DNA of 64,000 nucleotides, from IMG/VR virus record IMGVR_UViG_3300026737_000001; one strand, given 5' to 3'. Origin of the DNA: a virus. Lineage: Duplodnaviria; Heunggongvirae; Uroviricota; Caudoviricetes. Within the stretch, counting starts at the first letter, position 1; each line of letters starts with the position of its first letter. The notes beneath the pieces are model-generated. The model worked only from the letters and a program-made list of their open reading frames with translations, had not been told where the DNA came from and did no database searches. Position numbers and translations under genes: made by a program. Shown in pieces: positions 25,995-52,663 of the stretch.

Positions 25995-26013
25995 TATTTT
26001 ATCCCCCTTGTTT

Positions 26014-26211
26014 TTACTCTTTATTTGAAACTTCCTTTACCATGTTTTCTATATCTAAAATAGTTTCGTGCTTTACTGTTTCGTAATCTTTTTCAGTTTT
26101 ATCATAGGCTCGTCCATCCCAATAAGTCTTTTCCAAAAGCAGATGGTATTTTATTTTATCTACTTTAGCTCTTGCTTCTTTCGAAAAGATTTTTTTAATC
26201 CATTTAATCAT
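26014..26211 (-). CDS. hypothetical protein
   Basis: ORF. Confidence 0.3.
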   Translation of the reverse strand: MIKWIKKIFSKEARAKVDKIKYHLLLEKTYWDGRAYDKTEKDYETVKHETILDIENMVKEVSNKE

Positions 26212-26230
26212 TTTTATATTCCTCCATTTT

Positions 26231-26479
26231 TTATATGCAAAGCATAATTACTATATATACAAGTGTTGAACCTGTTATAGTGTAAGCCATATCCGTCCAT
26301 TCAAAGCAACCTTTATCAAGCCACTTGTCCCAGACATATTCCTTTAATATACCAACTGTACTTCCTGTTACTAATCCAAAGAATGGGTTAATCAAACTTA
26401 AAATTAGTGTTATTAACCCTCCAGCAAAAAAGTGTTTGATATAATCAATTCTTGGTGGCTTTTCTTTTAAAAATTCCAT
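26231..26479 (-). CDS. hypothetical membrane protein
   Basis: Two TM segments. Confidence 0.3.
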   Translation of the reverse strand: MEFLKEKPPRIDYIKHFFAGGLITLILSLINPFFGLVTGSTVGILKEYVWDKWLDKGCFEWTDMAYTITGSTLVYIVIMLCI

Positions 26480-26820
26480 AAGTCTAACACCCCTTCAATT
26501 CCTTCAGAGCCAAGAGGAATTTTGTAAATTGCTACCTTTTCTTCAAGTCCTGCAATTACCCTAACTTTCATCCCAAATATAGAGCTTATTTTATCTGCGT
26601 TTTCTTTTAATTCAACAGGCATTGTTTCTTTAAATTCTTCAAAACCCTCTTTATTAAAAACAATTACATAATGATAAGACATTTCAGGCAGTGAATTTAT
26701 TGCCTCATACAAGTCATCAAGGCTTGTTTCGTCTGTATTTATTTCACATTCGACAGAATACCTATCCTTAGATATACTGTCATACCACTCAATCTGGTCT
26801 TTTGCTACCTGAGATGTCAT
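26467..26820 (-). CDS. hypothetical protein (start trimmed to 'MTSQ' because the listed N-terminus 26821-26862 lies inside the IS right end)
   Basis: The listed ORF begins within the IS subterminal hairpin. The internal ATG at 26820 is preceded by GAGGAG. Confidence 0.35.
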   Translation of the reverse strand: MTSQVAKDQIEWYDSISKDRYSVECEINTDETSLDDLYEAINSLPEMSYHYVIVFNKEGFEEFKETMPVELKENADKISSIFGMKVRVIAGLEEKVAIYKIPLGSEGIEGVLDLWNF

Positions 26821-26963
26821 GGTCTTGACGCTCCTCGGGGCAAGCCCACGAGGATTCCTCATTCATAGAGAATTGCCTACTTAAAGCATAGCAAAAGCTA
26901 GATTAATTAGGTCTTATGCTCTCTCCAAAGGCGTAAATTCGGGTAAGCCCTACCCTATATAGT

Positions 26964-28085
26964 CTATCTTATACCTAAATCTAATTTGCCTTGTTTTAAA
27001 AGATTTTTACTAGCGTTTATATCCCTGTCGTGATTTGCACCACACTCACAAGTCCAAGTGCGAACTGATAAATCTTTGACTTTAGGATTTTTAGTACCAC
27101 ATTCTGAACAGGTTTGACTACTAGCAAAAAACCTATCTGCTTTGTGTAATATGCAATTATACCACTTGCTTTTGTATTCCAGCATTGTAGTAAACATATT
27201 CCAGGCACAATCAGAAATATGTTTTGCAAGTTTAGAATTTTTAAGCATACCTTTTACATTTAAGTCCTCTATGACTAAAAGTTGGTTCTCCTTTGTTAGA
27301 CTAGTTGACAGTTTATGCAAAAAGTCTTTACGAATATTTTTGATTTTTTCATGAACTTTAGCAATTTTCTTTTTAAGTTTATACCAATTGTTACTACCTT
27401 CTTCTTTACGAGCTAACCTTCTTTGTAATTTAGCAAGTTTATCTTGATATTTAGAAAGGTGCCTAGGATTTGAAATATGTTCACCATTAGAAGTAGTTAA
27501 AAAGTCTTTAATTCCTAAATCTAATCCTAATTCACATTGATTATCTTTAACAATAGTTACTAAGACTTGTTTAACATTAATTGATATATAATATTTACCT
27601 GCTCTAGATTTAGAAACTGTAACATTATTAATTTTACCTTTAACCTCTTTAGATTTAGCAAACTTAATCCAAGATAGTTTTGGTAGTTTAATCTTATTTT
27701 CTTTAATTTCAATATTTGTTGTACCACTAGGTCTAATGAATTTTTGTGTTCTATATGATAGCCTAGCTTTTCTTTTAGATTTAAACTTAGGATAATTATA
27801 TTTACCACTAAAGAAATTCTTAAAAGCTCTATCCAGGTCTTTAAGACTTTGCTGTAAAGCTATACTATCTACTTCTTTAAGCCACTCATATTCTTTTTTT
27901 AATTGAGGCAGTTGTCTGGAATATTTAGTATATGATTGATAATTTTCTTCTTTAGTTTTTGCTAAAAATTCGTTGTAAATGAATCTAGAACAACCAATAG
28001 TTTTATCAATTAATTCTTGTTGTTCTTGATTAGGATAAATTCTAAACTTATATGCTTTGTTAATTGGCTTAAATTTTTTAATCAT
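26964..28085 (-). CDS. tnpB: TnpB (IS605 OrfB-family RNA-guided nuclease/transposase accessory protein)
   Basis: N-terminal HTH 'YKFRIYPNQEQQELIDKTIGCSRFIYN', RuvC-like core, and C-terminal zinc finger 'CSECGTKNPKVKDLSVRTWTCECGANHDRDINASKN'. Confidence 0.85.
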   Translation of the reverse strand: MIKKFKPINKAYKFRIYPNQEQQELIDKTIGCSRFIYNEFLAKTKEENYQSYTKYSRQLPQLKKEYEWLKEVDSIALQQSLKDLDRAFKNFFSGKYNYPKFKSKRKARLSYRTQKFIRPSGTTNIEIKENKIKLPKLSWIKFAKSKEVKGKINNVTVSKSRAGKYYISINVKQVLVTIVKDNQCELGLDLGIKDFLTTSNGEHISNPRHLSKYQDKLAKLQRRLARKEEGSNNWYKLKKKIAKVHEKIKNIRKDFLHKLSTSLTKENQLLVIEDLNVKGMLKNSKLAKHISDCAWNMFTTMLEYKSKWYNCILHKADRFFASSQTCSECGTKNPKVKDLSVRTWTCECGANHDRDINASKNLLKQGKLDLGIR

Positions 28086-28132
28086 TATGTTTGCCTCTTT
28101 TCTATGTTGTTAACTACATTATATCATTGTGT

Positions 28133-28160
28133 TGATATGTTGTCAACTATATGATATAAT
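28133..28160 (+). promoter_or_regulatory. sigma70-type promoter with extended -10 (TTGATA-16-TGaTATAAT) for the RHH gene
   Basis: Seen directly. Followed by RBS AGGAGG (28167-28172) and ATG 28181. Confidence 0.6.
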
Positions 28161-28180
28161 AATTTTAGGAGGTGTTCATT

Positions 28181-28333
28181 ATGTCAAGAAAAGCAGTCAA
28201 CACTACTTTAAATAAAGAATTATATAAGAAAATTAGAATATTAGCTCTAAAAAAAGGTTGCAATGCTAATGATTTAATGGAAGAAGGTATGAAGATGGTA
28301 CTTAATAAGTATGAGAACCAGGAAAAAGAATAA
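28181..28333 (+). CDS. ribbon-helix-helix (CopG/Arc-like) small DNA-binding protein, 50 aa, inside the IS
   Basis: Not in the ORF track (under 60 aa). 'MSRKAVNTTLNKELYKKIRILALKKGCNANDLMEEGMKMVLNKY' has the RHH beta-strand plus two helices pattern. Consensus promoter and RBS. Confidence 0.6.
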   Translation: MSRKAVNTTLNKELYKKIRILALKKGCNANDLMEEGMKMVLNKYENQEKE

Positions 28334-28474
28334 TTTTAAAGCAATATTTAATTACTTCAAAATTAGGCACTATTCATCCGTGAGGGCAAGCCCATCAGGT
28401 TTTCTAGTGCCTAACTTTTATAACTTCTGCCGGGAATTCAATATCATCTATAAACATTCTCATCTCTGTTGCTT

Positions 28475-30154
28475 TTACTTTTTTTCCTGTGAACTCATTA
28501 CTGATTGTATCCATCTCCTCGTAGAAGCATTTTTTACAAAATCAACAAATAAAGGGTGTGGCCTCAAAGGTCTTGACTTAAACTCCGGATGAAACTGCAC
28601 ACCAACAAACCATCTGTGTTCTTTAAGCTCCATTGTTTCAACAAGCTTTCCGTCCGGTGATAGACCTGAGAATACAACCCCGTTAGCTTCAAATAACTTT
28701 CTGTAATCATTGTTAAACTCAAAGCGGTGACGATGCCTTTCTTTTAATTCTAAATGGTCGATGTAGGCGCTGTGAACTCTTGACTTTAAAGGCTTTGCTG
28801 TAAAATCATAAGAGCCAAGCCTCATTGTTCCGCCCTTGTTAACAACCTCTCTCTGCTCATTCATGAGGGTTATTACAGGGTTTTTAGTTTCACTGTCAAA
28901 CTCTAAGCTGTTGGCATCTTCTAGTCCTAACTCATTTCTGGCAAATTCAATAGCTGCAACCTGCATGCCAAGACAAATACCAAAGTAAGGGACCTTATTT
29001 TCTCTTGCATATTTAGCCGCCTTTATCTTGCCTTCAATGCCTCTCTCACCAAATCCACCAGGGACTAATATTCCATCATATCCTTTTAATGTTATTCTAA
29101 CTGCTTCATCACAGCTTAAATCTTCAAGCTCTTGAGAGTCAATAAATGTAATATCAACATCGAGATGATTTTTAAGACCTGCATGTATTAAAGCCTCTTT
29201 GATGCTGAGATATGCATCTTCGAGCTGTGTATATTTTCCCACAACTGCTATATTTACCTTTTCTTTTTTTTCTTGTAAATTTACAAGCATATGCCCCCAG
29301 TCATCTATATCTTGAGGATAACTCTGAAATGATTTAAAACCAAGTTTCTCCATTACCTTTTTAGCCATATCCTGACCTTCATATTTGAGAGGTATTTCAT
29401 AAATGTGCTCTACATCAACTGACTCAAATATTAATTCCTTGTCTATATCTCCAAATAAAGAAATCTTATCCCTTATTTCTTCAGGCATTTTATCTTTAAT
29501 TCTGCCGACTACAGCATCAGGCTGAACGCCAAGACTTCTAAGCTCCTTTAAGCTCTGCTGGGTAGGTTTTGATTTGTACTCTCCTACTTTATGCATGTAA
29601 GGAATTAATGTGCAGTGAACATGGAATGTGTTATCAAAACCTAAATCATGTCTTAACTGCCTTACAGCCTCCACAAAAGGGAAGCTTTCAATATCTCCTA
29701 CAGTGCCCCCGAGTTCAATTAGTATCACATCAGTCTTATCGTCTTCCGGCATGGTCATCCTGCGCTTTATCTCATCAGTGATATGAGGTATTACCTGTAT
29801 TGTCTTACCTAAGTATTTGCCTTTTCTTTCGTTATCTAAAACTTCCTGATAGATTTGACCTGTTGAGACAGAATTAATTCCAGAAAGCTCTATATCAATA
29901 AACCTTTCATAGTGGCCAAGGTCTAAATCAGTTTCTGCTCCATCATTGGTAACAAAAACCTCTCCGTGTTCTATAGGGTTCATTGTCCCAGCATCAACAT
30001 TTATATAGGGGTCAAATTTCTGAACCTTAATATTTAACCCTCTAGCTTTAAGTAACATTCCAAGCGATGCAGAAGTTAACCCCTTTCCTAATCCAGAGAC
30101 AACCCCTCCTGTCACGAATATATATTTAGTTTTCTTACTCACACTCATCAACAC
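28475..30154 (-). CDS. pyrG: CTP synthase
   Basis: Full-length 559 aa. 'KYIFVTGGVVSGLGKG' at the N-terminus, glutaminase-domain 'GICLGMQ' and 'GGTMRLG'. Confidence 0.9.
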   Translation of the reverse strand: MLMSVSKKTKYIFVTGGVVSGLGKGLTSASLGMLLKARGLNIKVQKFDPYINVDAGTMNPIEHGEVFVTNDGAETDLDLGHYERFIDIELSGINSVSTGQIYQEVLDNERKGKYLGKTIQVIPHITDEIKRRMTMPEDDKTDVILIELGGTVGDIESFPFVEAVRQLRHDLGFDNTFHVHCTLIPYMHKVGEYKSKPTQQSLKELRSLGVQPDAVVGRIKDKMPEEIRDKISLFGDIDKELIFESVDVEHIYEIPLKYEGQDMAKKVMEKLGFKSFQSYPQDIDDWGHMLVNLQEKKEKVNIAVVGKYTQLEDAYLSIKEALIHAGLKNHLDVDITFIDSQELEDLSCDEAVRITLKGYDGILVPGGFGERGIEGKIKAAKYARENKVPYFGICLGMQVAAIEFARNELGLEDANSLEFDSETKNPVITLMNEQREVVNKGGTMRLGSYDFTAKPLKSRVHSAYIDHLELKERHRHRFEFNNDYRKLFEANGVVFSGLSPDGKLVETMELKEHRWFVGVQFHPEFKSRPLRPHPLFVDFVKNASTRRWIQSVMSSQEKK

Positions 30155-38107: not shown

Positions 38108-39182
38108 CTAATTAGCTTTCTTAAAGAAATCTCCTTCAATCAATTTAACTTTATCAACCAGCATTGCATTACTTTTATCTTTTTTACCTTCAAGTTTTAA
38201 TTTAAAACCTTTTTGAAATAAGTCATGATTGGAGCGATATGTGTCCGGAAAAACTACAAGTTTAATCTTATTTTTATCTGTTTTAACTTTTGCAAAAGCC
38301 ATTAATTTATTTGACTTTCTGGTTTTAACCTCTTTAGATTCTGTAATTATGCCTTCCACCTCTAAGACCTCTCCGCTTTTAGCAAAATCCCATTCAGAAG
38401 GATAGGTTAAAGATAAACCGATTGTGTCCATTTCGAATTCAATAATTTCTTCTTTTGTGGGTTCTGGTTCGTCAAAAACTCCAGAACCTTCCTCATTTTT
38501 GAAGGCATCAAATAGTGACTGCCTCATCTGTCCAAACTCTTTAATAGTCTTGTAATCTACAAGTAATTGTTTTCTGTTTTTGCCGAATGAATCCATTGCC
38601 CCAGCTTTAATTAAAGATTCAAAAGCTGTCTTATTAACAACTCTTGTATCAACCTTCTGGTACATATCATCTAGGTCTTTAAACGGTCTTTGATTCATTA
38701 TTTCGGTGCTTGCTTTTTTACCTAAACCATCAATCGCATTTAAACCCAGTCTTATCTTCCCGTTAACAGCTGTAAAGCGCCCTTCTGACTCGTTAATGTC
38801 AGGAGGTAGTATATCTATCTTCTTTTTATAGCAGTCCGAGAAATAGTCCGTAATCGAGCTGTCAGAGCCACTCTTTGCTGCTTCAACACTCATGATAGCT
38901 GCATAGAACTCTGCCGGAAAATGGTATTTAAGGTAAGCAGTGGCATAAGATATTAATGCATAGCAAGCAGAATGTGATTTATTAAAGCCATAGCCGGCAA
39001 AATATTCGATTAATCTAAACATTTCATCAGCAAATTCTTCTGTGTGGCCATTTTCTTTAGCTCCTGCTTTAAACTTAACTTTCATTTTTTCTAATACTTT
39101 TATTTTCTTTTTTCCCATTCCACGCCTTAATATATCTGCCTCTCCCAGGCTGAAGTTAGCAATTATCTGTGCAGTTTTCATT
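38108..39182 (-). CDS. dnaE: DNA polymerase III alpha subunit DnaE, exon 3 (C-terminal part)
   Basis: '(V)MKTAQIIANFSLGEADILRRGMGKKK' corresponds to DnaE 'YQEQVMQIAQ...LGEADLLRRAMGKKK'. The codon is completed by splicing (see intron). Confidence 0.85.
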
Positions 39183-40758
39183 CAATTATGTTATCGCAAA
39201 AGCTTTTTATCTTCTGCTTCTATATCTGCTATCTTTACAAATATAGTTCGGCATACATTTTCACCTTATTTAAGGTGTCGAACACTCGTGGAGAGATTAT
39301 ATTTTACATATAAATGTAAGTTCACTCTCTATGCTCTACGGTATTAACAGATTTTTAGGTCTATTAATTACCTCGGTATTATCACATATAATATCCATTC
39401 TTTTTCTTTTTCTTGGTAGCCAAATATTAGCATCTTTGTACATGTATTTATATAGCTTTTTAGAAAATGATATACCACTTTGAAAGTAATATAGATTAGT
39501 ACTTTTATGGATTGTTTTATTGCTTTTTATTACCTTTTGTATAGATTTAAGCATTTTTTTATTTCCACAAAACCCACTTCTCTTACTTTTTTTGATGCAA
39601 GTTATGCCATCTCCATCAAAAAACCCTCTAATAAAGTGTCTATACATATTATCAGGTATTTGAAAGGGAAATGATTCTTTTCCCGTCTTATTAGGTATAA
39701 CACCATATTCAAATAATTTTTCAGTCATATGTCTTGATGTTAAGCTACATCTGCAACAGTAACCTTTTTTTGAATATCCAGAATTTTTACCAACATAAGG
39801 ATTAAGAGAACTTTCTAAGTGGCTTAAAAACCCATAAATAATCTCTTTGTCCTTTAAGGCTACACCTAATTTTATAGAATATTGACCATTATAGATAGAA
39901 GTGTTTCCATCAGCCATTAAAAAACCCAAAAAATAAGCTTTTTCTTCTTTGTTTATTTTATCAAAAAAATCTTCTTTTTTTATGCTATTCTCTAATCCTC
40001 TTTTTATATCAAAACCTTCTTTCTTTAACCATAATGAAATAGTGTTTCTATTAATACCTGTTTCAGTTGCTATTTCACATAAATATAATCCTGATTTATA
40101 AAGATTAACAACTCTTTTTTTATAAACATCTTTATATCCTATTTTATCCCCATGATTAAATTTTGAATTTTTTGTTAGTCCAGCATTTCTTAAATATTTA
40201 TACACTGTACCAACACTTATATTCAATAATTTTGATATTTCTTTTCCAAACTTACCTTCATTATAAAGGTCCATTATTTTTTTGATTTTATATTCACTTA
40301 TTTTTTCAGTTTTTTTAGATTTTTGTGGATTTTGTAAACTTATATCAGATTCATTAATCCATTTATAAATTGTACTTCTGCAAGGCATAATTTCCATTTT
40401 AGAAATATCAGTAACAGAAATGCCATCGCCATACATGTTTAATGCTTTTATTTTGCGTTGACTACTTTTCATCTTTATCACCTTCTACATATTGAAAGAG
40501 TATATACCTAACCATTTCAGAAAAATTAATTCCTTTTTTGTCAGCTATTTTTTGAATGTCTTCTTCCAGCTGTTCCGGTAAATAAATATTTCTTCTTTTC
40601 ATTTTTATCATCTCCAACGTGTGGTATTTGTATCACCTTGCATACATTATTATAACACACATTGAATCATTTTTCAAATTATGGATATTTAGATAGTGGC
40701 TTCACCGATTTTGCTCGATAATAATCTAGCTTATTTCTAAGCTGGACGGCAATTTCTT
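39183..40758 (-). other. group I-like intron in dnaE (intron 2), 1576 nt, carrying a LAGLIDADG HEG
   Basis: Exon 2 ends '...CAGGU' (U before the 5' splice site). The intron ends '...AATTG' (terminal G). Joining gives CAG GTA ATG = Q-V-M, restoring the conserved DnaE YQEQVM. A stop codon follows the exon 2 junction in frame. Confidence 0.7.
39336..40481 (-). CDS. LAGLIDADG homing endonuclease (double-motif) with N-terminal HTH modules, intron-encoded
   Basis: 'YFLGFLMADGNTS' and 'FIRGFFDGDGITC'. Confidence 0.8.
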   Translation of the reverse strand: MIKMKSSQRKIKALNMYGDGISVTDISKMEIMPCRSTIYKWINESDISLQNPQKSKKTEKISEYKIKKIMDLYNEGKFGKEISKLLNISVGTVYKYLRNAGLTKNSKFNHGDKIGYKDVYKKRVVNLYKSGLYLCEIATETGINRNTISLWLKKEGFDIKRGLENSIKKEDFFDKINKEEKAYFLGFLMADGNTSIYNGQYSIKLGVALKDKEIIYGFLSHLESSLNPYVGKNSGYSKKGYCCRCSLTSRHMTEKLFEYGVIPNKTGKESFPFQIPDNMYRHFIRGFFDGDGITCIKKSKRSGFCGNKKMLKSIQKVIKSNKTIHKSTNLYYFQSGISFSKKLYKYMYKDANIWLPRKRKRMDIICDNTEVINRPKNLLIP

Positions 40759-42710
40759 ACCTGTTCCTGGTATACTAGGTAACCGTATGTTTCCTCTAAT
40801 TCCTTTTTTAAACTTTCGTGTGGATATTCTACTTTTTCATTACCGTGCATTCTGTCGAAATATTTTTCCACAATACCAGCTTCAAGTGGTCCCGGGCGAC
40901 CGAGAGCAAGTATAGCAATTATATGCTCGAACTTTGTAGGTTTCATTTTCTTTAACAGCCTTTTAAATAGTTGTGATTCTACCTGAAAAACCCCGTTGGT
41001 ATCAGCCTTCTGATAGATGTTTTTATATACATCTTTATCATCAAGAGGTAAATCCCAAATGTTTTGTACTGTAGGCTTATACTCTAAGCTATCATAATCT
41101 TTTCTGTTCTTGATAAACTTAATAGCCTCACCTATGATAACAACAGTCTTTAACCCTAAGAAATCCATCTTGAGCAAACCTAAATCTTCGCTATCGTGCA
41201 TCTCTGTCTGAGTTACATATGTTATCTCACCAGTCTGGCTGTTTTTGGTTCGTGCTAAAGGTGTGTAATCATCAACAGGCTCTGGAGTAATAACAACTGC
41301 TGAGGCATGTGTACCTAACTGTCTAGGCTTACCTTCTAGCTTTTGAGCTATATCGAATAGTTTTGGATACTGTTCAGCATACATCTTAAGTTCTTTACTT
41401 TCTTCCAGTGCTTCCTTGATTGAAATACCTGGGGTATCGGGAAATGCCTTTGATATCTCTTTATTCATTAGATTGTAATCATATCCTAATACTCGGCCTA
41501 CATCTTTAACAGCTGATTTAGCACCTAGTGTACCAAAGTTACAGATACTTGCTACATTTTCTTCTCCGTATTTGTCGATTACATACTGGATAACTTTTCC
41601 TCTATTTCCAAAATCTATATCAATATCAGGCATAGCAGTTCTTTCAGGATTTAAGAATCTTTCAAACAGCAGTCCATACTTAACAGGGTCTAAGGCTGTG
41701 ATGCCTAAAAGATAGGATAGAAGTGAGCCTGCTGCAGACCCTCGACCAGGACCAACAATGATGTTATTATCTTTAGCCCACTGAACATAATCTTCAACAA
41801 TTAAAAAGTAGGCAGGATACCCCTTCATATTTATAACCTCAAGCTCTGTATCAAGCCGTCTGGCGTATTTATCCATATCAATGTCTTTTTCTACAGCCAA
41901 CTCAAAAAGCTTCTTAAAGGCCCTTTCTTCAAGGTATGACTCAAGTGTATAACCTTCAGGAACTTCGAACTTAGGAAGGAGTAAATTACCTAAATCAAGC
42001 TCGACTGTATCACATTTATCGGCAATTTTTACTGTATTCTCAACTGCACTATCTCTGGCATCTATAAAATCAGACTCTACACTTTTTGCAAAAAGCTGAC
42101 TTTTTATCTCATCTTCACCCTTAAAATAGTATGAATCTCCATGAAATCTAAATCTGTCATTATCTTCAACTTTTGCCCCTGTTTGAATACATAGCATAAC
42201 GTCATGAGCTTCTATACTGTCCTTTTCTAGATAGTGCATATCTGATGTAGCTACAAGCTCTATATCTAATTTTCTAGCTAAATTTGCAAGCTTTGAGTTC
42301 ATTACGTACTGCTCTGATACATCGTTGGCCATAATCTCTATATAGAAATCATCACCAAAAAGTTTTTTATATTTTAGAGCTATTTCTTCTGCTCTTTCAT
42401 TGTTGTTATTCTCTAAGGCTCTTGGTATCTCTCCTGCAAGGCAGGCAGAACTTACTATAAGTCCTTCAGAATGCTCTTTTAAAATTTCAAAATCTATTCT
42501 TGGTTTATAATAAAAACCTTCTGTATTTGACTTACTCACCATCTTAAAAATATTATCCAATCCTTTTTTATTTTTAGCAAGGATTATAAGGTGGTGTCTT
42601 TTACCTTCTTTATCATGCATGTCATTAGCTACATATACTTCAATTCCAAATATATGTTTAATTTCTTCTTCTTTGGCTGCTTTATAAAGCTCTACGAAAT
42701 TATGGATACT
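40759..42710 (-). CDS. dnaE: DNA polymerase III alpha subunit DnaE, exon 2 (PHP remainder plus polymerase core)
   Basis: 'GPGRGSAAGSLLSYLLGIT', 'FLGLKT', ends 'GYLVYQEQV'. Confidence 0.85.
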
Positions 42711-43840
42711 CAATTGTGTTATCCTACAAGTTTTTTACCATGTAGTTCTTGCAGTTCATTTCCTGCAAGTTCAGCATACCTTTTGCCCACCAGCATTACC
42801 TGTGAGGACAGGAGTCTCTTGGAAAAATTATATTCTTTAATACAAATTAAAGTTTCATTTTCTATGCGTTGCCCCTGACTAATATTTTAAAATTAGCCTT
42901 CGGTTCGGATTGGCTTCTCAGCTTTCCCGCTTAATACTCCTGTAATAATTCTAAACATTCCTGTTTAGAACGGCAAATTTATCATGTTTTCTCTTTAAAT
43001 ATATATTAGCATCTTTATATAGGTAGTCTTTAATTTTCAAAACAGCAAGCCTTCCTGACTTTCTTATTTTGTACATATCAGATTTATGAAATTTTGGTTT
43101 TTGCATAAATATATCATTTTTTTCAAACTCATCAGATATTTCATTTAGCATATCTTTATAGCCCATTATATAAAATTCACAATTTAAAGAGTTCTTGTGA
43201 TGGTTATCATTTCTTATTGAATATGATATACATCCATCACCGTCAAAGTAACCTCTTATAAAATGATTCATATATTCTTCTTTTATATTTGGTAATGAGT
43301 TTGTGTTTTTTACACCTAGTTTTATTAAGTCTTGATATATTTTTTTATTGGTAAAAGACAGAGTATATTGTCCAATATTACTATATCTATCCTTTCTTGG
43401 TTTAATGTAATATAATGGACCTGCATAACCAACTTCATTTTTTACATCTAAAAGAAGTTTTTTATCATCTTCTTTTAAACCAATAGAGGCCACATAACTT
43501 CTTCCTGAAATATATACGCTTCCATCTGAATAAAATAATCCTAATATATAGGCTTTCTCTTTAGAATTTATTTCAGAAAAATATTTTTGATTTATTTTAT
43601 ATTGTGGTTGACCTCCTGGATTTCTTGATTTTATATTATACTCTTTGAAAGTCGTTTGTATTTTTGAAGCACTTACATTAAAATATTTTCCTATATCTTT
43701 ATGACTTAAACCATCATTATAAAGATTTTTCATTTCATTAATTTGTTTTGTAGAAAAAATAATTTTTTTAGTAATTTTTATCACCCTCTTTAGCTTAAAG
43801 GTGCTAATATATTTATAATTATAACATGATATTAATGTTT
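42711..43840 (-). other. group I-like intron in dnaE (intron 1), 1130 nt, carrying a LAGLIDADG HEG
   Basis: Exon 1 ends '...GAC CAC GGU' and the intron ends '...CACAATTG'. Joining gives 'TDHG|SIHNFVELYKAAK', collinear without gaps with Firmicute DnaE 'TDHGNMFGAIEFYKAAK'. Confidence 0.65.
42951..43784 (-). CDS. LAGLIDADG homing endonuclease, intron-encoded (paralog of 39336..40481)
   Basis: 'YILGLFYSDGSVY' and 'FIRGYFDGDGCIS'. The N-terminal HTH resembles the other HEG. Confidence 0.8.
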   Translation of the reverse strand: MIKITKKIIFSTKQINEMKNLYNDGLSHKDIGKYFNVSASKIQTTFKEYNIKSRNPGGQPQYKINQKYFSEINSKEKAYILGLFYSDGSVYISGRSYVASIGLKEDDKKLLLDVKNEVGYAGPLYYIKPRKDRYSNIGQYTLSFTNKKIYQDLIKLGVKNTNSLPNIKEEYMNHFIRGYFDGDGCISYSIRNDNHHKNSLNCEFYIMGYKDMLNEISDEFEKNDIFMQKPKFHKSDMYKIRKSGRLAVLKIKDYLYKDANIYLKRKHDKFAVLNRNV

Positions 43841-49621: not shown

Positions 49622-52600
49622 CTAACCCTCATATCCGTTTTCAGCATCACACTTAGGACAGAATTCGTGTTCTCCTGGCAGATACCCATGTATTGGACAA
49701 ATACTAAAAGTAGGAGTAATAGAGTAATAAGGAAGTTCATAATTTTCAGCAACTCTTTTAACAAACTTTTTGGTAGCCTCTATTCCAGGCATTCTCTCTC
49801 CTAGAAATAAATGTAAAACTGTTCCTCCTGTATAATTTTTCTGAAGTTCATCCTGCCAATCTAAAGCTTCAAAAGGGTCGTCTGTAGCCCCTACAGGTAG
49901 CTGAGTTGAATTAGTGTAATACGGGTCAGCATCTTCTGTATAAACCCTTTTATCATTAGCAAAAACAGCTTCTTCTTTCCCAAACTTATCAAGGTCTGAT
50001 TTGGCCAATCTATAGCTTGTTCCTTCAGCTGGAGTAGCTTCAAGGTTAAAAAGGTCACTTGTTTCTTCCTGGTACTCCACCATTCTTTCTTTCATTTTGT
50101 ACATAACCCATTTAGTAAATTTAATAGCTTCATGTTCTGTCATATCTTTTCCTAAGAAATTCATAACAGATTCATTCATTCCATTTAATCCGATTGTATT
50201 AAAGTGATTTTTCCAGTACTCTCCAAAACGTTCCTTAATACTTCTTAGATAAAACTTAGAATAAGGGTAAAGACCTGCATCTGTTAACTCTTCTAAAATT
50301 CTTCTTTTAATTTCTAAACTTTCTTTTGCAATATCCATTAATTCATAGACTCTCTCTAAATAATCATCAGTATTTTCTGCTAAAAGTCCAATTCTGGGCA
50401 TATTAAGTGTTACTACACCGATAGAGCCTGTCATAGGCGATGAGCCGAATAAACCTCCTCCTCGCTTTCTTAATTGCCGATTATCAAGGCGCAGCCTGCA
50501 GTTATGAGTCAAGATTCCAGTTGTGCCAACCGTAAACATTGGTTCTCCATCTTTGACTTCAAAACAATAAGCCGTTTGTTTTTCTTTTAGTTTTTCAACT
50601 TTATCTATTTTCATCCACAGTTTTGAGTCTTTTTTAAACCAAACGTCGCCATAACTATTTCTATTTAATTTGTAAAATAAAACAGCATAATTTGGATTAT
50701 CTCCTAGTCTTCCATCACTTTTTTTTCTGTCATCAGTATAAACATTGGTTGTTGTTCCCAGAGTAGCAGCTAACATATTTAAGCTTTCTACCATTTTTTC
50801 TGATGATGTATAAATTCTATTTTTGTTTCCTCCATCAGTTTCATAATAGCCATCAAATAATCCTGTTCTAAAGTGTTTGCTCATTTCAAAAACATTTGCT
50901 TTGAAGTATTTATTTAATGCATTATCCCCATCAACAAAACTTTCAATCATTGATTTTACTGCTGGATTATATGTTGAAAGTTTAACTACATTATTTTTTT
51001 CTTCTTTTTCGGTAAATTTAGCCCCAAAAAGTTTAGTCAGTATTTCTTTTAAATTTTCAAGCACTGTTAGCTTGGTATTATTATTTAAAGAAAAAACAGT
51101 TCCTGTATTTTTATCACAGCTTCCGTCTCCTGCAAAAGCTCCTATTAAATAGCCAAGGTCATAAGTTCCTCCTTCGCCTTTAAAACTTGTTAAGCTATAA
51201 GGTAGATAATAACCTTCTTTTAAGTCTTTTCCTGACATTTCTTCAATATCTTTATTTTTATTTTTGATAACAAAATTTAAATGTTCTTCAGTCATCTTTA
51301 TCTCATGCCCGTTAACCAATCTTACATTTATCATATTTTGATTTTCAAACTTATTGAATCGACCTTCTATAAATTTACCATCAGAATAGACTAATATATC
51401 ATCATTATCTTTAGTGTCATAATATGTGTGGTTAATTTGGGAGTATCTTACATTGTCATCACCTGTTTTAACTAATACCTTTTCTTTTCCGTCAAGTGGA
51501 CACATTGAGCGAGCGTCTTCAGCTTTCATATCGGAATTGACGAAGTTCGCAAAATATGGAATTCCGTACTTGGCTGTCATTTCCCAAACAGGATTTAATA
51601 TTTCGTTATCCCAATCAAAATCTGGAGTAATGTTATAAGTAGGAATAGGGAAAGAAAATACTCTTCCTTTTGAATCTCCCGCCAGCATAACCTCAGCAAA
51701 AGCCTTGTTAATCATGTCCATTTCCTTCTGGAAATTTTTAAGCGGCATGTCATAAAGCATTTCGCCACCAATAATAGCTGGGTCCTCTGCCATATTTGAT
51801 GGACAAACTAAATCCATAGTTAAATTTGTAAAAGGACTTTGAAATCCAACCCGTGTCGGTACATTTAAATTAAAAATAAATTCCTGCATAGCCTGATAAA
51901 CTTCATCATAATCAAGTCCATCATAAGATACAAACGGTGCAAGATAAGTATCGAAACTTGAAAAAGCTTGAGCTCCAGAACTCTCTCCCTGTAAAGTATA
52001 TAAAAAATTAACCATTTGTCCTAAAGCAGTTCTGAAGTGTTTTGGTGGTGCCGACTCTATCTTGGTTGACACTCCTGAAAAACCTTCCAATAATAAATCC
52101 TGAAGGTCCCATCCACAACAGTAATTACTTAAATTAGCAAGGTCGTGAATGTGCAAATCTCCACTTACATGCTTTTCTTTAATGTGTTTAGGGTAAATTT
52201 CATTTAACCAATAATGGCCTGTCACCTCGCTTGCTATATGATTATTTAAACCCTGAAGACTATAACCCATATTGGAGTTCTCATTAACTTTCCAATTGCT
52301 TAAATCAAGGTAATTATTAACTGTATCATTTATTCCATTGTATAGTTTTTGAGCATCTCTATACTTTTCATGCTGCTTTCTATATAATATATAGTTTTTT
52401 GCTATTTCATAATGTCTGTTTTCCATTAATTCATACTCAACAATATCCTGTAAAGTCTCAACATTAACAGAGTTTAATCCAGAACTAATCATTCCACTTA
52501 TATTATCTTCTATTTCTTCAACAATATTATTTGCAACAAAATTCCAAAAATCTTCACCTTTTTTTTCTGCTGTTGCCTTCGCTGCTTTATAAACTGCATC

Positions 52601-52663
52601 TTTAATTTTTTTATTTTTATATTCTACTTTTCTTCCGTCTCTTTTAATTACATAAAACGACAT
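49622..52663 (-). CDS. nrdD: anaerobic ribonucleoside-triphosphate reductase NrdD (class III), intein-containing
   Basis: N-terminal ATP-cone, C-terminal zinc ribbon and glycyl region '...CPIHGYL...CPKCD'. 1013 aa, of which 334 aa are intein. Confidence 0.8.
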   Translation of the reverse strand: MSFYVIKRDGRKVEYKNKKIKDAVYKAAKATAEKKGEDFWNFVANNIVEEIEDNISGMISSGLNSVNVETLQDIVEYELMENRHYEIAKNYILYRKQHEKYRDAQKLYNGINDTVNNYLDLSNWKVNENSNMGYSLQGLNNHIASEVTGHYWLNEIYPKHIKEKHVSGDLHIHDLANLSNYCCGWDLQDLLLEGFSGVSTKIESAPPKHFRTALGQMVNFLYTLQGESSGAQAFSSFDTYLAPFVSYDGLDYDEVYQAMQEFIFNLNVPTRVGFQSPFTNLTMDLVCPSNMAEDPAIIGGEMLYDMPLKNFQKEMDMINKAFAEVMLAGDSKGRVFSFPIPTYNITPDFDWDNEILNPVWEMTAKYGIPYFANFVNSDMKAEDARSMCPLDGKEKVLVKTGDDNVRYSQINHTYYDTKDNDDILVYSDGKFIEGRFNKFENQNMINVRLVNGHEIKMTEEHLNFVIKNKNKDIEEMSGKDLKEGYYLPYSLTSFKGEGGTYDLGYLIGAFAGDGSCDKNTGTVFSLNNNTKLTVLENLKEILTKLFGAKFTEKEEKNNVVKLSTYNPAVKSMIESFVDGDNALNKYFKANVFEMSKHFRTGLFDGYYETDGGNKNRIYTSSEKMVESLNMLAATLGTTTNVYTDDRKKSDGRLGDNPNYAVLFYKLNRNSYGDVWFKKDSKLWMKIDKVEKLKEKQTAYCFEVKDGEPMFTVGTTGILTHNCRLRLDNRQLRKRGGGLFGSSPMTGSIGVVTLNMPRIGLLAENTDDYLERVYELMDIAKESLEIKRRILEELTDAGLYPYSKFYLRSIKERFGEYWKNHFNTIGLNGMNESVMNFLGKDMTEHEAIKFTKWVMYKMKERMVEYQEETSDLFNLEATPAEGTSYRLAKSDLDKFGKEEAVFANDKRVYTEDADPYYTNSTQLPVGATDDPFEALDWQDELQKNYTGGTVLHLFLGERMPGIEATKKFVKRVAENYELPYYSITPTFSICPIHGYLPGEHEFCPKCDAENGYEG
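50501..51502 (-). mobile_element. intein with LAGLIDADG homing-endonuclease domain inside NrdD (aa 388-721)
   Basis: Starts with Cys in 'ARSM|CPLDGKEKVLV' and ends 'GILTHN|C'. LAGLIDADG motifs 'YLIGAFAGDGS' and 'FRTGLFDGYYETDGG'. Extein junction 'ARSM-CRLRLD'. Confidence 0.7.

What the first reader, a model, noticed from the sequence alone, without database searches (positions are those of the whole stretch)
26822..28440. IS1341-type TnpB element with conserved subterminal hairpins, probable omega-RNA region and a strongly expressed RHH passenger gene
tnpB (373 aa, HTH plus RuvC plus zinc finger) is flanked by two hairpins sharing the core TGGGCTTGCCC: RE at 26832-26852 and LE at 28375-28396 (- strand reading). 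The ~140 nt between the tnpB stop and RE is GC-richer and structured, as expected for the omega/re-RNA scaffold. The adjacent sequence beyond RE would be the guide. Between LE and tnpB, divergently, sits a 50-aa ribbon-helix-helix gene with a near-consensus extended -10 promoter (TTGATA-16-TGaTATAAT) and AGGAGG RBS. An RHH regulator inside a TnpB element is atypical and may control tnpB or omega-RNA expression. The insertion also supplies the first 14 codons of the listed neighbouring ORF (26821-26862).
Basis: partly seen in the sequence, partly recalled or inferred. Interest (0 to 1): 0.6.

Follow-up and report, generated by a model that had tools for sequence, protein, structure and literature searches.

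The report
Arc-regulated TnpB insertion sequence in phage
A 1.6-kb IS200/IS605-family mobile element, carrying an RNA-guided nuclease (TnpB), its guide RNA and a small repressor (Arc), sits inside a phage gene; it is a clean, well-delimited example of a kind of element already described.

Summary
Window 26825-28419 (top strand = minus strand) is a complete, non-autonomous IS200/IS605-family element of 1,595 bp.

- **Ends:** they are exact. The two flanks, joined, align without a gap to an empty site in a 96%-identical phage contig. Eight or more independent bacterial copies lose similarity at the same bases.
- **Insertion site:** the element lies 3' of TTAT with no duplication, inside a ~150-aa phage ORF.
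- **TnpB:** it has an intact RuvC triad.
- **omega-RNA:** the 130 nt between the tnpB stop and the right end form a structure with strong covariation.
- **RHH gene:** the 50-aa gene belongs to the element, not to the phage. It is absent from the empty site and present in chromosomal copies in Halanaerobiales.

This RHH matches the 'Arc' accessory protein of IS605-family elements, first noted in 2023. A September 2026 preprint showed that Arc represses the bidirectional tnpB/arc promoter. Here two near-consensus face-to-face promoters carry two 16-bp near-palindromes that co-vary with Arc in a distant relative.

Verdict: new member of a known kind, modest interest.

The parts
26825..28419 (-). 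Whole element, 1,595 bp: LE - arc (antisense) - tnpB - omega-RNA - RE. It is non-autonomous (no tnpA), i.e. IS1341-type by definition.
   Evidence: The joined flanks align colinearly, without a gap, to the empty sites L155 (96%) and L154 (76%). Similarity to the independent copy L067 spans the element end to end, starting 2 nt inside the LE and running to the last RE base, and it ends at the RE in the other copies. The LE start itself rests on the junction comparison and the empty sites.
28420..28423 (-). Target site and predicted TAM, TTAT (a G at 28424 is also present in all cases). It lies immediately 5' of the LE and is not part of the element.
   Evidence: Five independent LE junctions and two empty sites all read G-TTAT|. 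The role as TAM is inferred from IS200/IS605 and TnpB biology.
28363..28414 (-). LE two-tier hairpin. The outer stem is TTAGGCACTA/TAGTGCCTAA. The inner imperfect palindrome is CC-TGA-T-GGGC-TT-GCCC-TCA-C-GG (28378-28399). AAAA lies 5' of the foot of the inner hairpin.
   Evidence: In the consensus fold of 5 copies, 8 of 16 pairs show compensatory change, 7 of them in the 8-pair outer stem. TTAT lies 20 nt 5' of the foot, against 19 nt in IS608 (PMC3201880).
28181..28333 (+). arc: 50-aa ribbon-helix-helix protein, divergent from tnpB, with an AGGAGG RBS.
   Evidence: - Pfam RHH_3 and Antitox_RHH hits fall just below gathering score.
- A 94%-identical homolog passes RHH_3.
- The AF2 model has pLDDT 84 and an extended-helix-helix layout.
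- The top 20 Foldseek PDB hits are RHH proteins such as CopA, Arc, CopG and PutA.
- The gene is present in chromosomal copies of the element.
- A 44%-identical partner lies next to the 52%-identical TnpB in Geobacillus virus E3.
28104..28160 (.). Bidirectional control region.
- P_tnpB (- strand): -35 at 28146-28141, -10 at 28123-28118.
- P_arc (+ strand): -35 at 28132-28137, -10 at 28155-28160.
- Two 16-bp near-palindromes, ATGTTGTTAACTACAT (28104-28119) and ATGTTGTCAACTATAT (28137-28152), lie 33 bp apart and are the predicted Arc operators.
   Evidence: The promoter scan gives 12/12 and 11/12 matches, both with TG. The motif occurs only here in the window, against 0.38 expected. Both sites change in parallel in E3. 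A related motif lies upstream of the C. botulinum homolog. Binding itself is inferred.
26964..28085 (-). tnpB: 373-aa RNA-guided endonuclease.
   Evidence: Three Pfam domains hit. It aligns over residues 9-372 of 373 to ISDra2 TnpB 8H1J/8EXA, E about 1e-87, with the RuvC D (GLDLG), E (VIEDL) and D (HDRD) conserved. Relatives at 85-92% identity occur in Halanaerobiales.
26825..26963 (-). omega-RNA scaffold, non-coding part. The 5' end is undetermined and probably lies within the 3' end of tnpB. It ends with the RE hairpin CCTCG-T-GGGC-TT-GCCC-CGAGG (26833-26853) and the cleavage tetranucleotide TCAA (26825-26828).
   Evidence: In 7 independent copies there are 38 pairs, 96% of cells paired, and 16 pairs with compensatory change. 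None of 500 shuffles reach this, and slid controls give at most 4. Seven copies (six independent sequences) diverge immediately after TCAA. There is no Rfam match.
26809..26824 (-). Predicted 16-nt guide, GACCATGACATCTCAG, encoded by phage DNA just outside the RE. It spans the ATG at 26820.
   Evidence: Position is relative to the RE end. Guide length and use are inferred from ISDra2 TnpB (PMC8612924).
28420..28514 (-). 5' fragment (about 32 codons) of the interrupted phage ORF. In the window it is listed as a 36-aa ORF, 28404-28514, which runs into the LE.
   Evidence: The uninterrupted homologs P0145 (150 aa) and P0146 (147 aa) read ...PAEV|MTLTSQ... across the junction.
26467..26824 (-). 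3' fragment of the interrupted phage ORF. A possible restart lies at ATG 26820. That ATG is Leu (CTG or CTT) in the empty alleles, and it sits 10 nt after the GAGGAG of the 3' arm of the RE hairpin.
   Evidence: Restart is an inference.

Best explanation
This is a non-autonomous IS200/IS605-family insertion sequence, tnpB-only (IS1341-type), of a lineage resident in Halanaerobiales. It transposed as single-stranded DNA, using a Y1 TnpA supplied in trans, into a phage genome. It landed 3' of TTAT inside a small phage gene.

The element carries three functional modules:
1. **Transposition ends.** The LE and RE subterminal hairpins and the cleavage sites (TTAT| and TCAA|) are what TnpA uses.
2. 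**TnpB and its omega-RNA.** The omega-RNA is transcribed from P_tnpB through tnpB and the RE into the flanking 16 nt or so. If the element is excised, the complex would cut the restored TTAT+GACCATGACATCTCAG site and force re-copying by recombination.
3. **Arc.** This 50-aa RHH repressor is transcribed divergently. It most likely binds the two 16-bp near-palindromes that overlap the interleaved P_tnpB and P_arc promoters. That would shut down tnpB and omega-RNA transcription and its own transcription, in a negative autoregulatory loop.

- **Shown here:** the boundaries, the target site, the absence of tnpA, the intact catalytic motifs, the conserved RNA structure, the RHH fold, and the linkage of arc to the element.
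- **Inferred:** nuclease activity, TAM identity, Arc binding and repression, and mobilisation in trans.
For: **Boundaries and target**
- An empty site was found in related phage contigs.
- Five LE junctions are all preceded by G-TTAT. Seven RE junctions (six independent sequences) diverge right after TCAA.

**Family features**
- Hairpins lie in the same orientation at both ends and carry compensatory changes.
- The geometry is close to IS608: TTAT lies 20 nt 5' of the LE hairpin foot and TCAA ends 8 nt 3' of the RE hairpin foot, against 19 and 10 nt in IS608. AAAA 5' of the LE foot parallels the IS608 pairing of AAAG with TTAC (PMC3201880).

**TnpA in trans**
- There is no Y1 gene in the window.
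- An 89%-identical tnpB with the same ends in Halanaerobacter jeridensis carries RHH plus a Y1_Tnp TnpA (E = 6e-42).

**TnpB and omega-RNA**
- TnpB aligns over residues 9-372 of 373 to ISDra2 TnpB with an intact D/E/D triad.
- omega-RNA covariation is strong.

**Arc**
- The RHH fold is supported.
- The gene lies inside the element in independent chromosomal copies.
- A diverged TnpB in Geobacillus virus E3 has a homologous divergent partner.
- Other relatives carry divergent RHH genes.
- The promoters are consensus and interleaved.
- The paired palindromes are unique in the window and co-vary with Arc in E3.

**Published experiments**
- IS605-family Arc binds the bidirectional promoter and represses P_tnpB, including in arc+tnpB-only elements (bioRxiv 10.64898/2026.09.24.754181).
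Against: - No experiment bears on this particular element.
- Of the three DNA-contact residues reported for P. xylanilyticum Arc (N5, N7, T9), only N7 and T9 are kept here; position 5 is Ala.
- The preprint reports that some Arc homologs showed no sequence-specific binding.
- Membership in the preprint's Arc clade could not be checked, because its supplementary tables are not held.
- The single-sequence fold of the omega-RNA region is not better than shuffles (z = -1.3).
- No Rfam family matches.
- The zinc finger's second motif is CxC rather than CxxC, with unknown effect.
- No source of TnpA is visible in the phage.
Confidence: 0.85

Rival explanations
1. Arc and TnpB form a toxin-antitoxin-like pair. 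The RHH protein would bind TnpB, or its RNA complex, and block its nuclease activity, as proposed for the archaeal RHH/MazE-TnpB systems. It would not act mainly as a transcriptional repressor.
For: The best Pfam and fold matches of the RHH include antitoxin families such as Antitox_RHH, CopA(SO) and VapB. PNAS 2023 (PMC10691335) proposes this model for an archaeal clade. The Arc preprint notes that an interaction with TnpB-omega-RNA has been proposed.
Against: - The genes here are divergent, not in an operon.
- TnpB has a canonical rather than a rearranged catalytic site.
- The element is mobile with intact ends, whereas the archaeal clade is described as immobile.
- Near-identical tnpB copies exist with a DUF6471 gene in place of the RHH gene, and a more distant relative carries an XRE-type HTH gene there. 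That fits an exchangeable promoter-regulator cassette better than a specific protein-protein inhibitor.
- The 50-aa protein has no C-terminal toxin-binding extension.
- Operator-like palindromes overlap both promoters.
Confidence: 0.07
2. The element is a decaying relic in the phage. It would be immobile and transcriptionally irrelevant, and the RHH and TnpB ORFs would be intact only because the insertion is recent.
For: There is no tnpA in cis or anywhere in the 64-kb window. Related copies do decay: L073 has lost its LE, and L078/L079 have TnpB truncated at about 302-308 aa.
Against: - Both ORFs are full length and both ends are complete.
- Both promoters are at or near consensus.
- Amino-acid identity (91% for TnpB, 90-94% for Arc) is at least as high as nucleotide identity (about 90%) between copies at eight or more different sites. 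This fits purifying selection and recent mobility.
Confidence: 0.06
3. The RHH is a phage regulatory gene that merely lies next to an IS. It would control phage genes rather than the element.
For: Small RHH regulators are common in phages, and the gene has a strong promoter.
Against: - The empty site in related phages lacks the gene.
- It lies between the LE and tnpB, inside the element boundaries.
- 90-94%-identical copies sit in the same position in bacterial chromosomal copies.
- The operator-like motif occurs nowhere else in the window.
Confidence: 0.02

Closest known systems
Arc-containing IS605-family elements (Zedaveinyte et al. 2023/2024, 'Arc-like ORF'; Moon, Zedaveinyte, Wiegand and Sternberg, bioRxiv 10.64898/2026.09.24.754181, Sept 2026)
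   Same: - A small RHH gene lies inside the IS boundaries.
- It is divergent from tnpB across a bidirectional promoter region.
- Oppositely oriented repeats overlap the -35 and -10 elements.
- The arc+tnpB-only architecture is explicitly among those tested.
- The protein is in the micro-protein size class (50 aa).
- N7 and T9 of the beta-strand are conserved.
   Different: - The host element lies in a phage genome from a metagenome, and its lineage is Halanaerobiales.
- Position 5 is Ala, not Asn.
- No binding or repression data exist for this homolog.
- Placement in the paper's Arc clade could not be verified.
ISDra2 TnpB / omega-RNA (Karvelis et al. 2021, PMC8612924; structures 8H1J, 8EXA)
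   Same: The TnpB proteins are homologous over residues 9-372 of 373 (E about 1e-87), with the same RuvC triad. The omega-RNA is encoded at the 3' end of tnpB and across the RE, with the guide taken from the flank. The TAM equals the transposon's target site.
   Different: - The target/TAM is TTAT here, against TTGAT in ISDra2.
- The protein is shorter (373 aa against 408 aa).
- The second zinc-finger motif is CxC.
- There is no tnpA in cis.
- An Arc regulator is present.
IS608 (Helicobacter pylori), the mechanistic model of IS200/IS605 ends (PMC3201880)
   Same: - Both have subterminal imperfect palindromes with an unpaired T.
- Cleavage is 3' of a tetranucleotide that lies 19-20 nt 5' of the LE hairpin.
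- The right-end cleavage site is TCAA in both, a few nucleotides 3' of the RE hairpin.
- A 4-nt guide lies 5' of the hairpin foot: AAAG with TTAC in IS608, AAAA with TTAT here.
   Different: Here there is no tnpA, the LE has an extra covarying outer stem, and the target is TTAT rather than TTAC.
TnpB + GP145 locus of Geobacillus virus E3 (KP144388, GP144/GP145)
   Same: This is also a phage-borne element with the same architecture. TnpB is 373 aa (52% identical) and the divergent RHH is 54 aa (44% identical). It has two operator-like repeats in the intergenic region and hairpins at both ends.
   Different: It lies at an unrelated insertion site, in a different host lineage, with different hairpin and operator sequences. 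GP145 is annotated only as a hypothetical protein.

Membership tests
IS200/IS605 family insertion sequence | Insertion 3' of a specific tetra- or pentanucleotide, with no target-site duplication and no terminal inverted repeats | tested here: met
   The empty-site alignment has no gap or duplication. TTAT precedes the LE in 5 of 5 independent copies.
IS200/IS605 family insertion sequence | Subterminal imperfect palindromes at LE and RE in the same orientation on the top strand | tested here: met
   Shown by direct repeat D7. Compensatory changes occur in both hairpins across copies.
IS200/IS605 family insertion sequence | Y1 (HUH) TnpA transposase | tested here: not met
   It is absent from the element and from the window. 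This defines the non-autonomous, tnpB-only (IS1341-type) subgroup and does not exclude the element from the family. An 89%-identical relative with the same ends encodes a Y1_Tnp protein, E = 6e-42.
TnpB / OMEGA RNA-guided nuclease | RuvC-like domain with a D-E-D triad, a zinc finger and an N-terminal HTH/WED region | tested here: met
   Three Pfam domains hit. The alignment to 8H1J/8EXA shows the three catalytic positions conserved. The second zinc-finger motif is CxC.
TnpB / OMEGA RNA-guided nuclease | Conserved structured omega-RNA overlapping the 3' end of tnpB and the RE, ending at the transposon boundary | tested here: met
   38 pairs, 96% of cells paired, 16 pairs with compensatory change, 0 of 500 shuffles reaching this. 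Conservation stops at TCAA|. No curated Rfam model matches.
TnpB / OMEGA RNA-guided nuclease | TAM-dependent, guide-dependent DNA cleavage | not testable with these tools
   This needs a plasmid-interference or in vitro cleavage assay.
IS605-family Arc repressor (Moon et al. 2026) | Stand-alone ribbon-helix-helix fold | tested here: met
   The AF2 model has pLDDT 84. The top 20 Foldseek hits are RHH proteins, including P22 Arc. A 94%-identical homolog passes the Pfam RHH_3 gathering score. The window protein itself scores 20.4 against a cut-off of 21.6.
IS605-family Arc repressor (Moon et al. 2026) | Encoded within the transposon boundaries, next to tnpB and/or tnpA, across a promoter-bearing intergenic region | tested here: met
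IS605-family Arc repressor (Moon et al. 2026) | Sequence-specific binding to motifs overlapping the transposon promoter, and repression of P_tnpB | not testable with these tools
   Only indirect support exists. Two 16-bp near-palindromes overlap the -35 and the -10/+1 region of P_tnpB and the spacer of P_arc. They are unique in the window and co-vary with Arc in E3.
IS605-family Arc repressor (Moon et al. 2026) | Beta-strand DNA-contact residues N5, N7 and T9 | tested here: inconclusive
   N7 and T9 are invariant in the 22-member family. Position 5 is A, S, N or T, and the C. botulinum homolog has N5.
IStron (group I intron fused to IS605/IS607) | Group I intron at the 5' side of the element | tested here: not met
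   There is no Rfam hit, including Intron_gpI, at E <= 1 in 26000-29000. Only about 85 nt lie between the arc stop and the LE end, which leaves no room.
RHH/MazE-TnpB putative toxin-antitoxin (Altae-Tran et al. 2023, PMC10691335) | RHH gene upstream in the same operon, rearranged RuvC-III (D to H), immobile, archaeal | tested here: not met
   Here the orientation is divergent, the HDRD motif is canonical, and the element is mobile with bacterial and phage hosts.

The most novel reading that the evidence does not exclude
In a phage, the TnpB-omega-RNA module may do more than retain the element after excision. It could act as an RNA-guided homing drive during co-infection, cutting IS-free alleles (TTAT+guide) of related phages and converting them, much like the phage's homing endonucleases and intein.

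The only close empty allele found differs from the guide at TAM-proximal positions 4, 5 and 10. That could be target-site escape. Arc would then time or limit this activity during infection.

Separately, near-identical tnpB and end sequences are found with three different regulator arrangements: a divergent Arc, a divergent DUF6471 protein, and a co-directional RHH plus TnpA. This suggests that DUF6471 is a second, undescribed family of IS605 regulators.
Probability: 0.2. Interest if true: 0.6.

Novelty: new member of a known kind. Interest (0 to 1): 0.3.

Why it matters
The locus is an unusually clean natural example of an Arc-regulated, TnpB-only IS605-family element. Every part is delimited to the base: target/TAM, both ends, omega-RNA scaffold, guide, two promoters and a pair of candidate operators. 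A matching empty site and a cognate autonomous relative are also available. That makes it a ready test case for the recently proposed Arc repression model, and for asking what a TnpB element does inside a virus. It does not reveal a new kind of system.

Tried and rejected
- **Rfam scan** of 26000-29000 at E <= 1: no omega-RNA, group I intron or other family. The IStron idea was dropped.
- **Megablast of 16 kb of the window against GenBank phages:** no match. The phage has no close sequenced relative there.
- **Viral-contig scan with TnpB:** relatives reach only 52% identity at most, which is useless for defining the ends. The protein database and the genome scan gave the 85-92% copies instead.
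- **Narrow HMM of the Arc family against small ORFs upstream of 152 tnpB loci:** it recovered only the close family. More distant divergent RHH partners were recognised by inspection and Pfam. No prevalence figure is claimed.
- **PDB sequence search with the RHH protein:** only spurious designed-repeat hits. A fold search was needed.
- **C. botulinum homolog P0140 (76% identical):** I expected it to lie in an IS or IStron. Instead it precedes a 486-aa ORF of unknown function, so it cannot be equated with the C. botulinum Arc tested in the preprint.
- **Supplementary tables of the Arc preprint:** not held.
- **Single-sequence RNA fold of the scaffold:** not significant (z = -1.3). The structure claim rests on covariation only.
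- **Long-range pairing** between tnpB codons (alignment columns 72-77) and GCGTCA at the RE, predicted by RNAalifold: it has no covariation and was left out.
Full report
**1. What is in the sequence**

On the minus strand, ORF 26964-28085 encodes a 373-aa protein. It hits Pfam HTH_OrfB_IS605, OrfB_IS605 and Cas12f1-like_TNB, all well above their cut-offs. It aligns over residues 9-372 of 373 to the solved ISDra2 TnpB (8H1J, 8BF8/8EXA; E about 1e-87). The three RuvC catalytic positions are conserved: GLDLG, VIEDL and HDRD.

Divergently, on the plus strand, ORF 28181-28333 encodes 50 aa behind an AGGAGG RBS. The RE hairpin is CCTCG-T-GGGC-TT-GCCC-CGAGG at 26833-26853. The inner LE hairpin lies at 28378-28399. 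They form a 22-nt direct repeat (D7), and the GGGCTTGCCC core occurs exactly nowhere else in the 64 kb. GC is 0.46 in 26820-26959, against 0.22-0.37 across the tnpB coding region.

**2. Exact boundaries and target site**

TnpB relatives at 85-92% identity occur in Halanaerobiales: Halanaerobium, Halanaerobacter, Orenia and Natroniella, plus MAGs. I compared independent insertions.
- Similarity to the window stops exactly after ...GTCAA at 26825 in seven copies, representing six independent sequences.
- It begins right after G-TTAT (28424-28420) in all five copies that retain an LE.

The decisive test was an empty site. Homologs of the downstream phage ORF led to two related phage contigs that lack the element. 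The window flanks 28540..28420 and 26824..26700, joined, align to them colinearly with no gap or duplication. Identity is 96% for L155 and 76% for L154.

The element is therefore 26825-28419, 1,595 bp. It is inserted 3' of TTAT without a target duplication, which is the signature of IS200/IS605 transposition. The geometry is close to the IS608 paradigm (PMC3201880):
- TTAT lies 20 nt 5' of the LE hairpin foot, against 19 nt in IS608.
- AAAA lies 5' of that foot. IS608 has AAAG there, pairing with TTAC.
- The right cleavage site is TCAA in both, ending 8 nt after the RE hairpin here.

**3. The element interrupts a phage gene**

The uninterrupted homologs are 147-150 aa and read ...PAEV|MTLTSQ... 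across the junction. In the window, the first 32 codons or so lie at 28514-28420. They appear as a 36-aa ORF that runs into the LE. The rest lies at 26824-26467.

The '131-aa ORF' that starts inside the RE (ATG 26862) is therefore a by-product of the insertion. Two codons after the junction the window has ATG (26820), where both empty alleles have Leu (CTG or CTT). This ATG lies 10 nt after the GAGGAG of the 3' arm of the RE hairpin. A translational restart of the C-terminal fragment is possible but untested.

The window is clearly phage. It encodes a 2,100-aa virion protein, DNA polymerase, RecJ, a DnaB-like helicase and NrdD.

**4. omega-RNA**

I aligned seven independent copies from 150 nt or so inside tnpB to 20 nt beyond the RE. 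RNAalifold predicted a multi-helix structure between the tnpB stop and the RE end.

I counted only the 38 pairs downstream of the stop codon:
- 96% of cells pair.
- 16 pairs carry compensatory changes.
- None of 500 shuffles reach any of the five measures.
- Sliding the partners gives at most 4 such pairs.

The last helix is the RE hairpin, so its covariation may also reflect recognition by TnpA as DNA. The single-sequence fold is not distinctive (z = -1.3), and Rfam has no matching family.

The predicted guide is the 16 nt beyond 26825, GACCATGACATCTCAG. The close empty allele reads GACTCTGACCTCTCAG, with mismatches at guide positions 4, 5 and 10.

**5. The RHH gene belongs to the element and is the known 'Arc'**

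- It is absent from the empty site.
- It is present at 90-94% identity, in the same place, in chromosomal copies of the element.
- Geobacillus virus E3 carries, at an unrelated locus, a 52%-identical TnpB with a divergent 54-aa partner that is 44% identical to this RHH.
- Other relatives at 45-52% TnpB identity also have divergent small RHH ORFs, one of which passes Pfam RHH_5.

The fold is RHH. The AF2 model has pLDDT 84 with an extended N-terminus and two helices. The top 20 Foldseek PDB hits are RHH proteins, including CopA(SO), P22 Arc, CopG and PutA. A 94%-identical homolog passes the RHH_3 gathering score.

The literature already describes this association. An 'Arc-like ORF' associated with TnpB was reported in 2023 (bioRxiv 10.1101/2023.11.20.567912). 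A preprint of 28 September 2026 (10.64898/2026.09.24.754181) shows by ChIP-seq and reporter assays that IS605-family Arc binds the bidirectional promoter between arc(/tnpA) and tnpB. It also shows that Arc represses P_tnpB, and it covers arc+tnpB-only elements.

**6. Control region**

- P_tnpB is TTGACA-17-TATAAT, 12/12 matches with TG, at 28146-28118 on the minus strand.
- P_arc is TTGATA-17-TATAAT, 11/12 matches with TG, at 28132-28160 on the plus strand.
- Each -35 element lies in the other promoter's spacer.

Two 16-bp near-palindromes lie 33 bp apart: ATGTTGTTAACTACAT (28104-28119) and ATGTTGTCAACTATAT (28137-28152). The first covers the -10/+1 region of P_tnpB. The second covers the P_tnpB -35 and the P_arc spacer. 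The motif occurs nowhere else in the window, against 0.38 expected.

In E3 both sites have changed in parallel, to ATGTCTCTAACGACAT and ATGTCGTCAACGACAT. A related TTGTTAACTAT motif precedes the 76%-identical C. botulinum homolog. I infer that these are the Arc operators and that Arc represses both promoters. No binding data exist for this protein.

Of the contact residues reported for P. xylanilyticum Arc (N5, N7, T9), N7 and T9 are invariant in this family. Position 5 is Ala here.

**7. Mobility**

No Y1 transposase is encoded in the window. An 89%-identical tnpB with the same LE and RE in Halanaerobacter jeridensis is preceded, co-directionally, by a 53-aa ORF that looks RHH-like but has only a weak, sub-threshold Pfam RHH_1 hit (E = 0.013). 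That ORF overlaps a 136-aa Y1_Tnp TnpA (E = 6e-42). A cognate transposase therefore exists in the presumed host clade, and mobilisation in trans is the likely route into the phage.

Copies at eight or more different sites at about 90% identity argue for recent activity. Some copies are decaying: L073 lacks the LE, and the Natroniella TnpB is truncated.

**8. Rivals**

- **Toxin-antitoxin-like inhibition of TnpB,** as proposed for archaeal RHH/MazE-TnpB (PMC10691335). This is disfavoured by the divergent orientation, the canonical active site, the mobility of the element and the exchangeability of the regulator.
- **A relic.** This is disfavoured by the intact ORFs, ends and consensus promoters.
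- **A phage-owned regulator.** This is contradicted by the empty site.
- **An IStron.** This is excluded, because there is no group I intron and no room for one.

**9. Verdict**

- the true ends are 26825 and 28419;
- the neighbouring ORF is a split phage gene;
- the RHH is the described Arc regulator, neither atypical nor a passenger.

This is a new member of a known kind. Its value is as a fully delimited natural example, with a matching empty site, a cognate autonomous relative and candidate operators.

The more speculative points are RNA-guided homing between co-infecting phages and a DUF6471 protein as an alternative IS605 regulator. Both are recorded but not established.

Noticed in passing
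L072 2170-2373 (Orenia marismortui), L078 2170-2382 (Natroniella acetigena), L076 1922-2483 (Halanaerobacter jeridensis): Copies with tnpB (80-87% nt identity), LE and RE closely similar to the window's come with three different regulator modules. The window type has a divergent Arc. The Orenia and Natroniella copies have a divergent 67-70-aa DUF6471 protein (PF20075, 32 bits) with an unrelated intergenic promoter region. The Halanaerobacter copy has a co-directional RHH-like ORF plus TnpA. The Arc preprint does not mention DUF6471 as an IS605 regulator.
   Followed up: partly
window 38108-42713: The phage DNA polymerase is split into two ORFs: 40737-42713 (phrog_405 positions 83-722) and 38108-39181 (positions 723-1077). 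Between them lies a 381-aa ORF (39336-40481) with several HTH domains and a weak LAGLIDADG hit. This is probably a homing-endonuclease or intron-type insertion.
   Followed up: partly
window 49622-52663 and 42951-43784: The anaerobic ribonucleotide reductase NrdD (1,013 aa) contains an intein with a LAGLIDADG domain (Pfam Intein_splicing, residues 437-721). A free-standing LAGLIDADG endonuclease ORF lies at 42951-43784. The phage is rich in selfish elements.
   Followed up: partly
L155 652-672 versus window 26824-26809: The 96%-identical empty allele differs from the predicted guide at TAM-proximal positions 4, 5 and 10. One of these changes gives the window an ATG (26820) where the empty alleles have Leu. 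It could be drift, escape from TnpB cutting, or selection for a restart codon.
   Followed up: no
L156 3001-4627 (Clostridium botulinum): The closest Arc homolog outside the Halanaerobiales element family (59 aa, 76% identical, annotated as CopG/RHH_3) is not next to tnpB. It overlaps the start of a 486-aa ORF with no Pfam hit, and a similar TTGTTAACTAT motif lies in its promoter. It is found on 24 or more contigs.
   Followed up: partly
window 28363-28414: The LE carries an outer 8-10-bp stem around the TnpA-type hairpin. This stem covaries in three sequence versions, and it is followed by TTTT on both strands. It might act as a bidirectional terminator that insulates the element and ends the arc transcript. 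The terminator scan did not call it.
   Followed up: partly
L073 2100-2260; L078 and L079 tnpB: Some chromosomal copies are decaying. L073/L075 has lost the LE; a terminator hairpin from the upstream gene abuts the arc stop. The Natroniella copies have TnpB truncated at about 302-308 aa.
   Followed up: no
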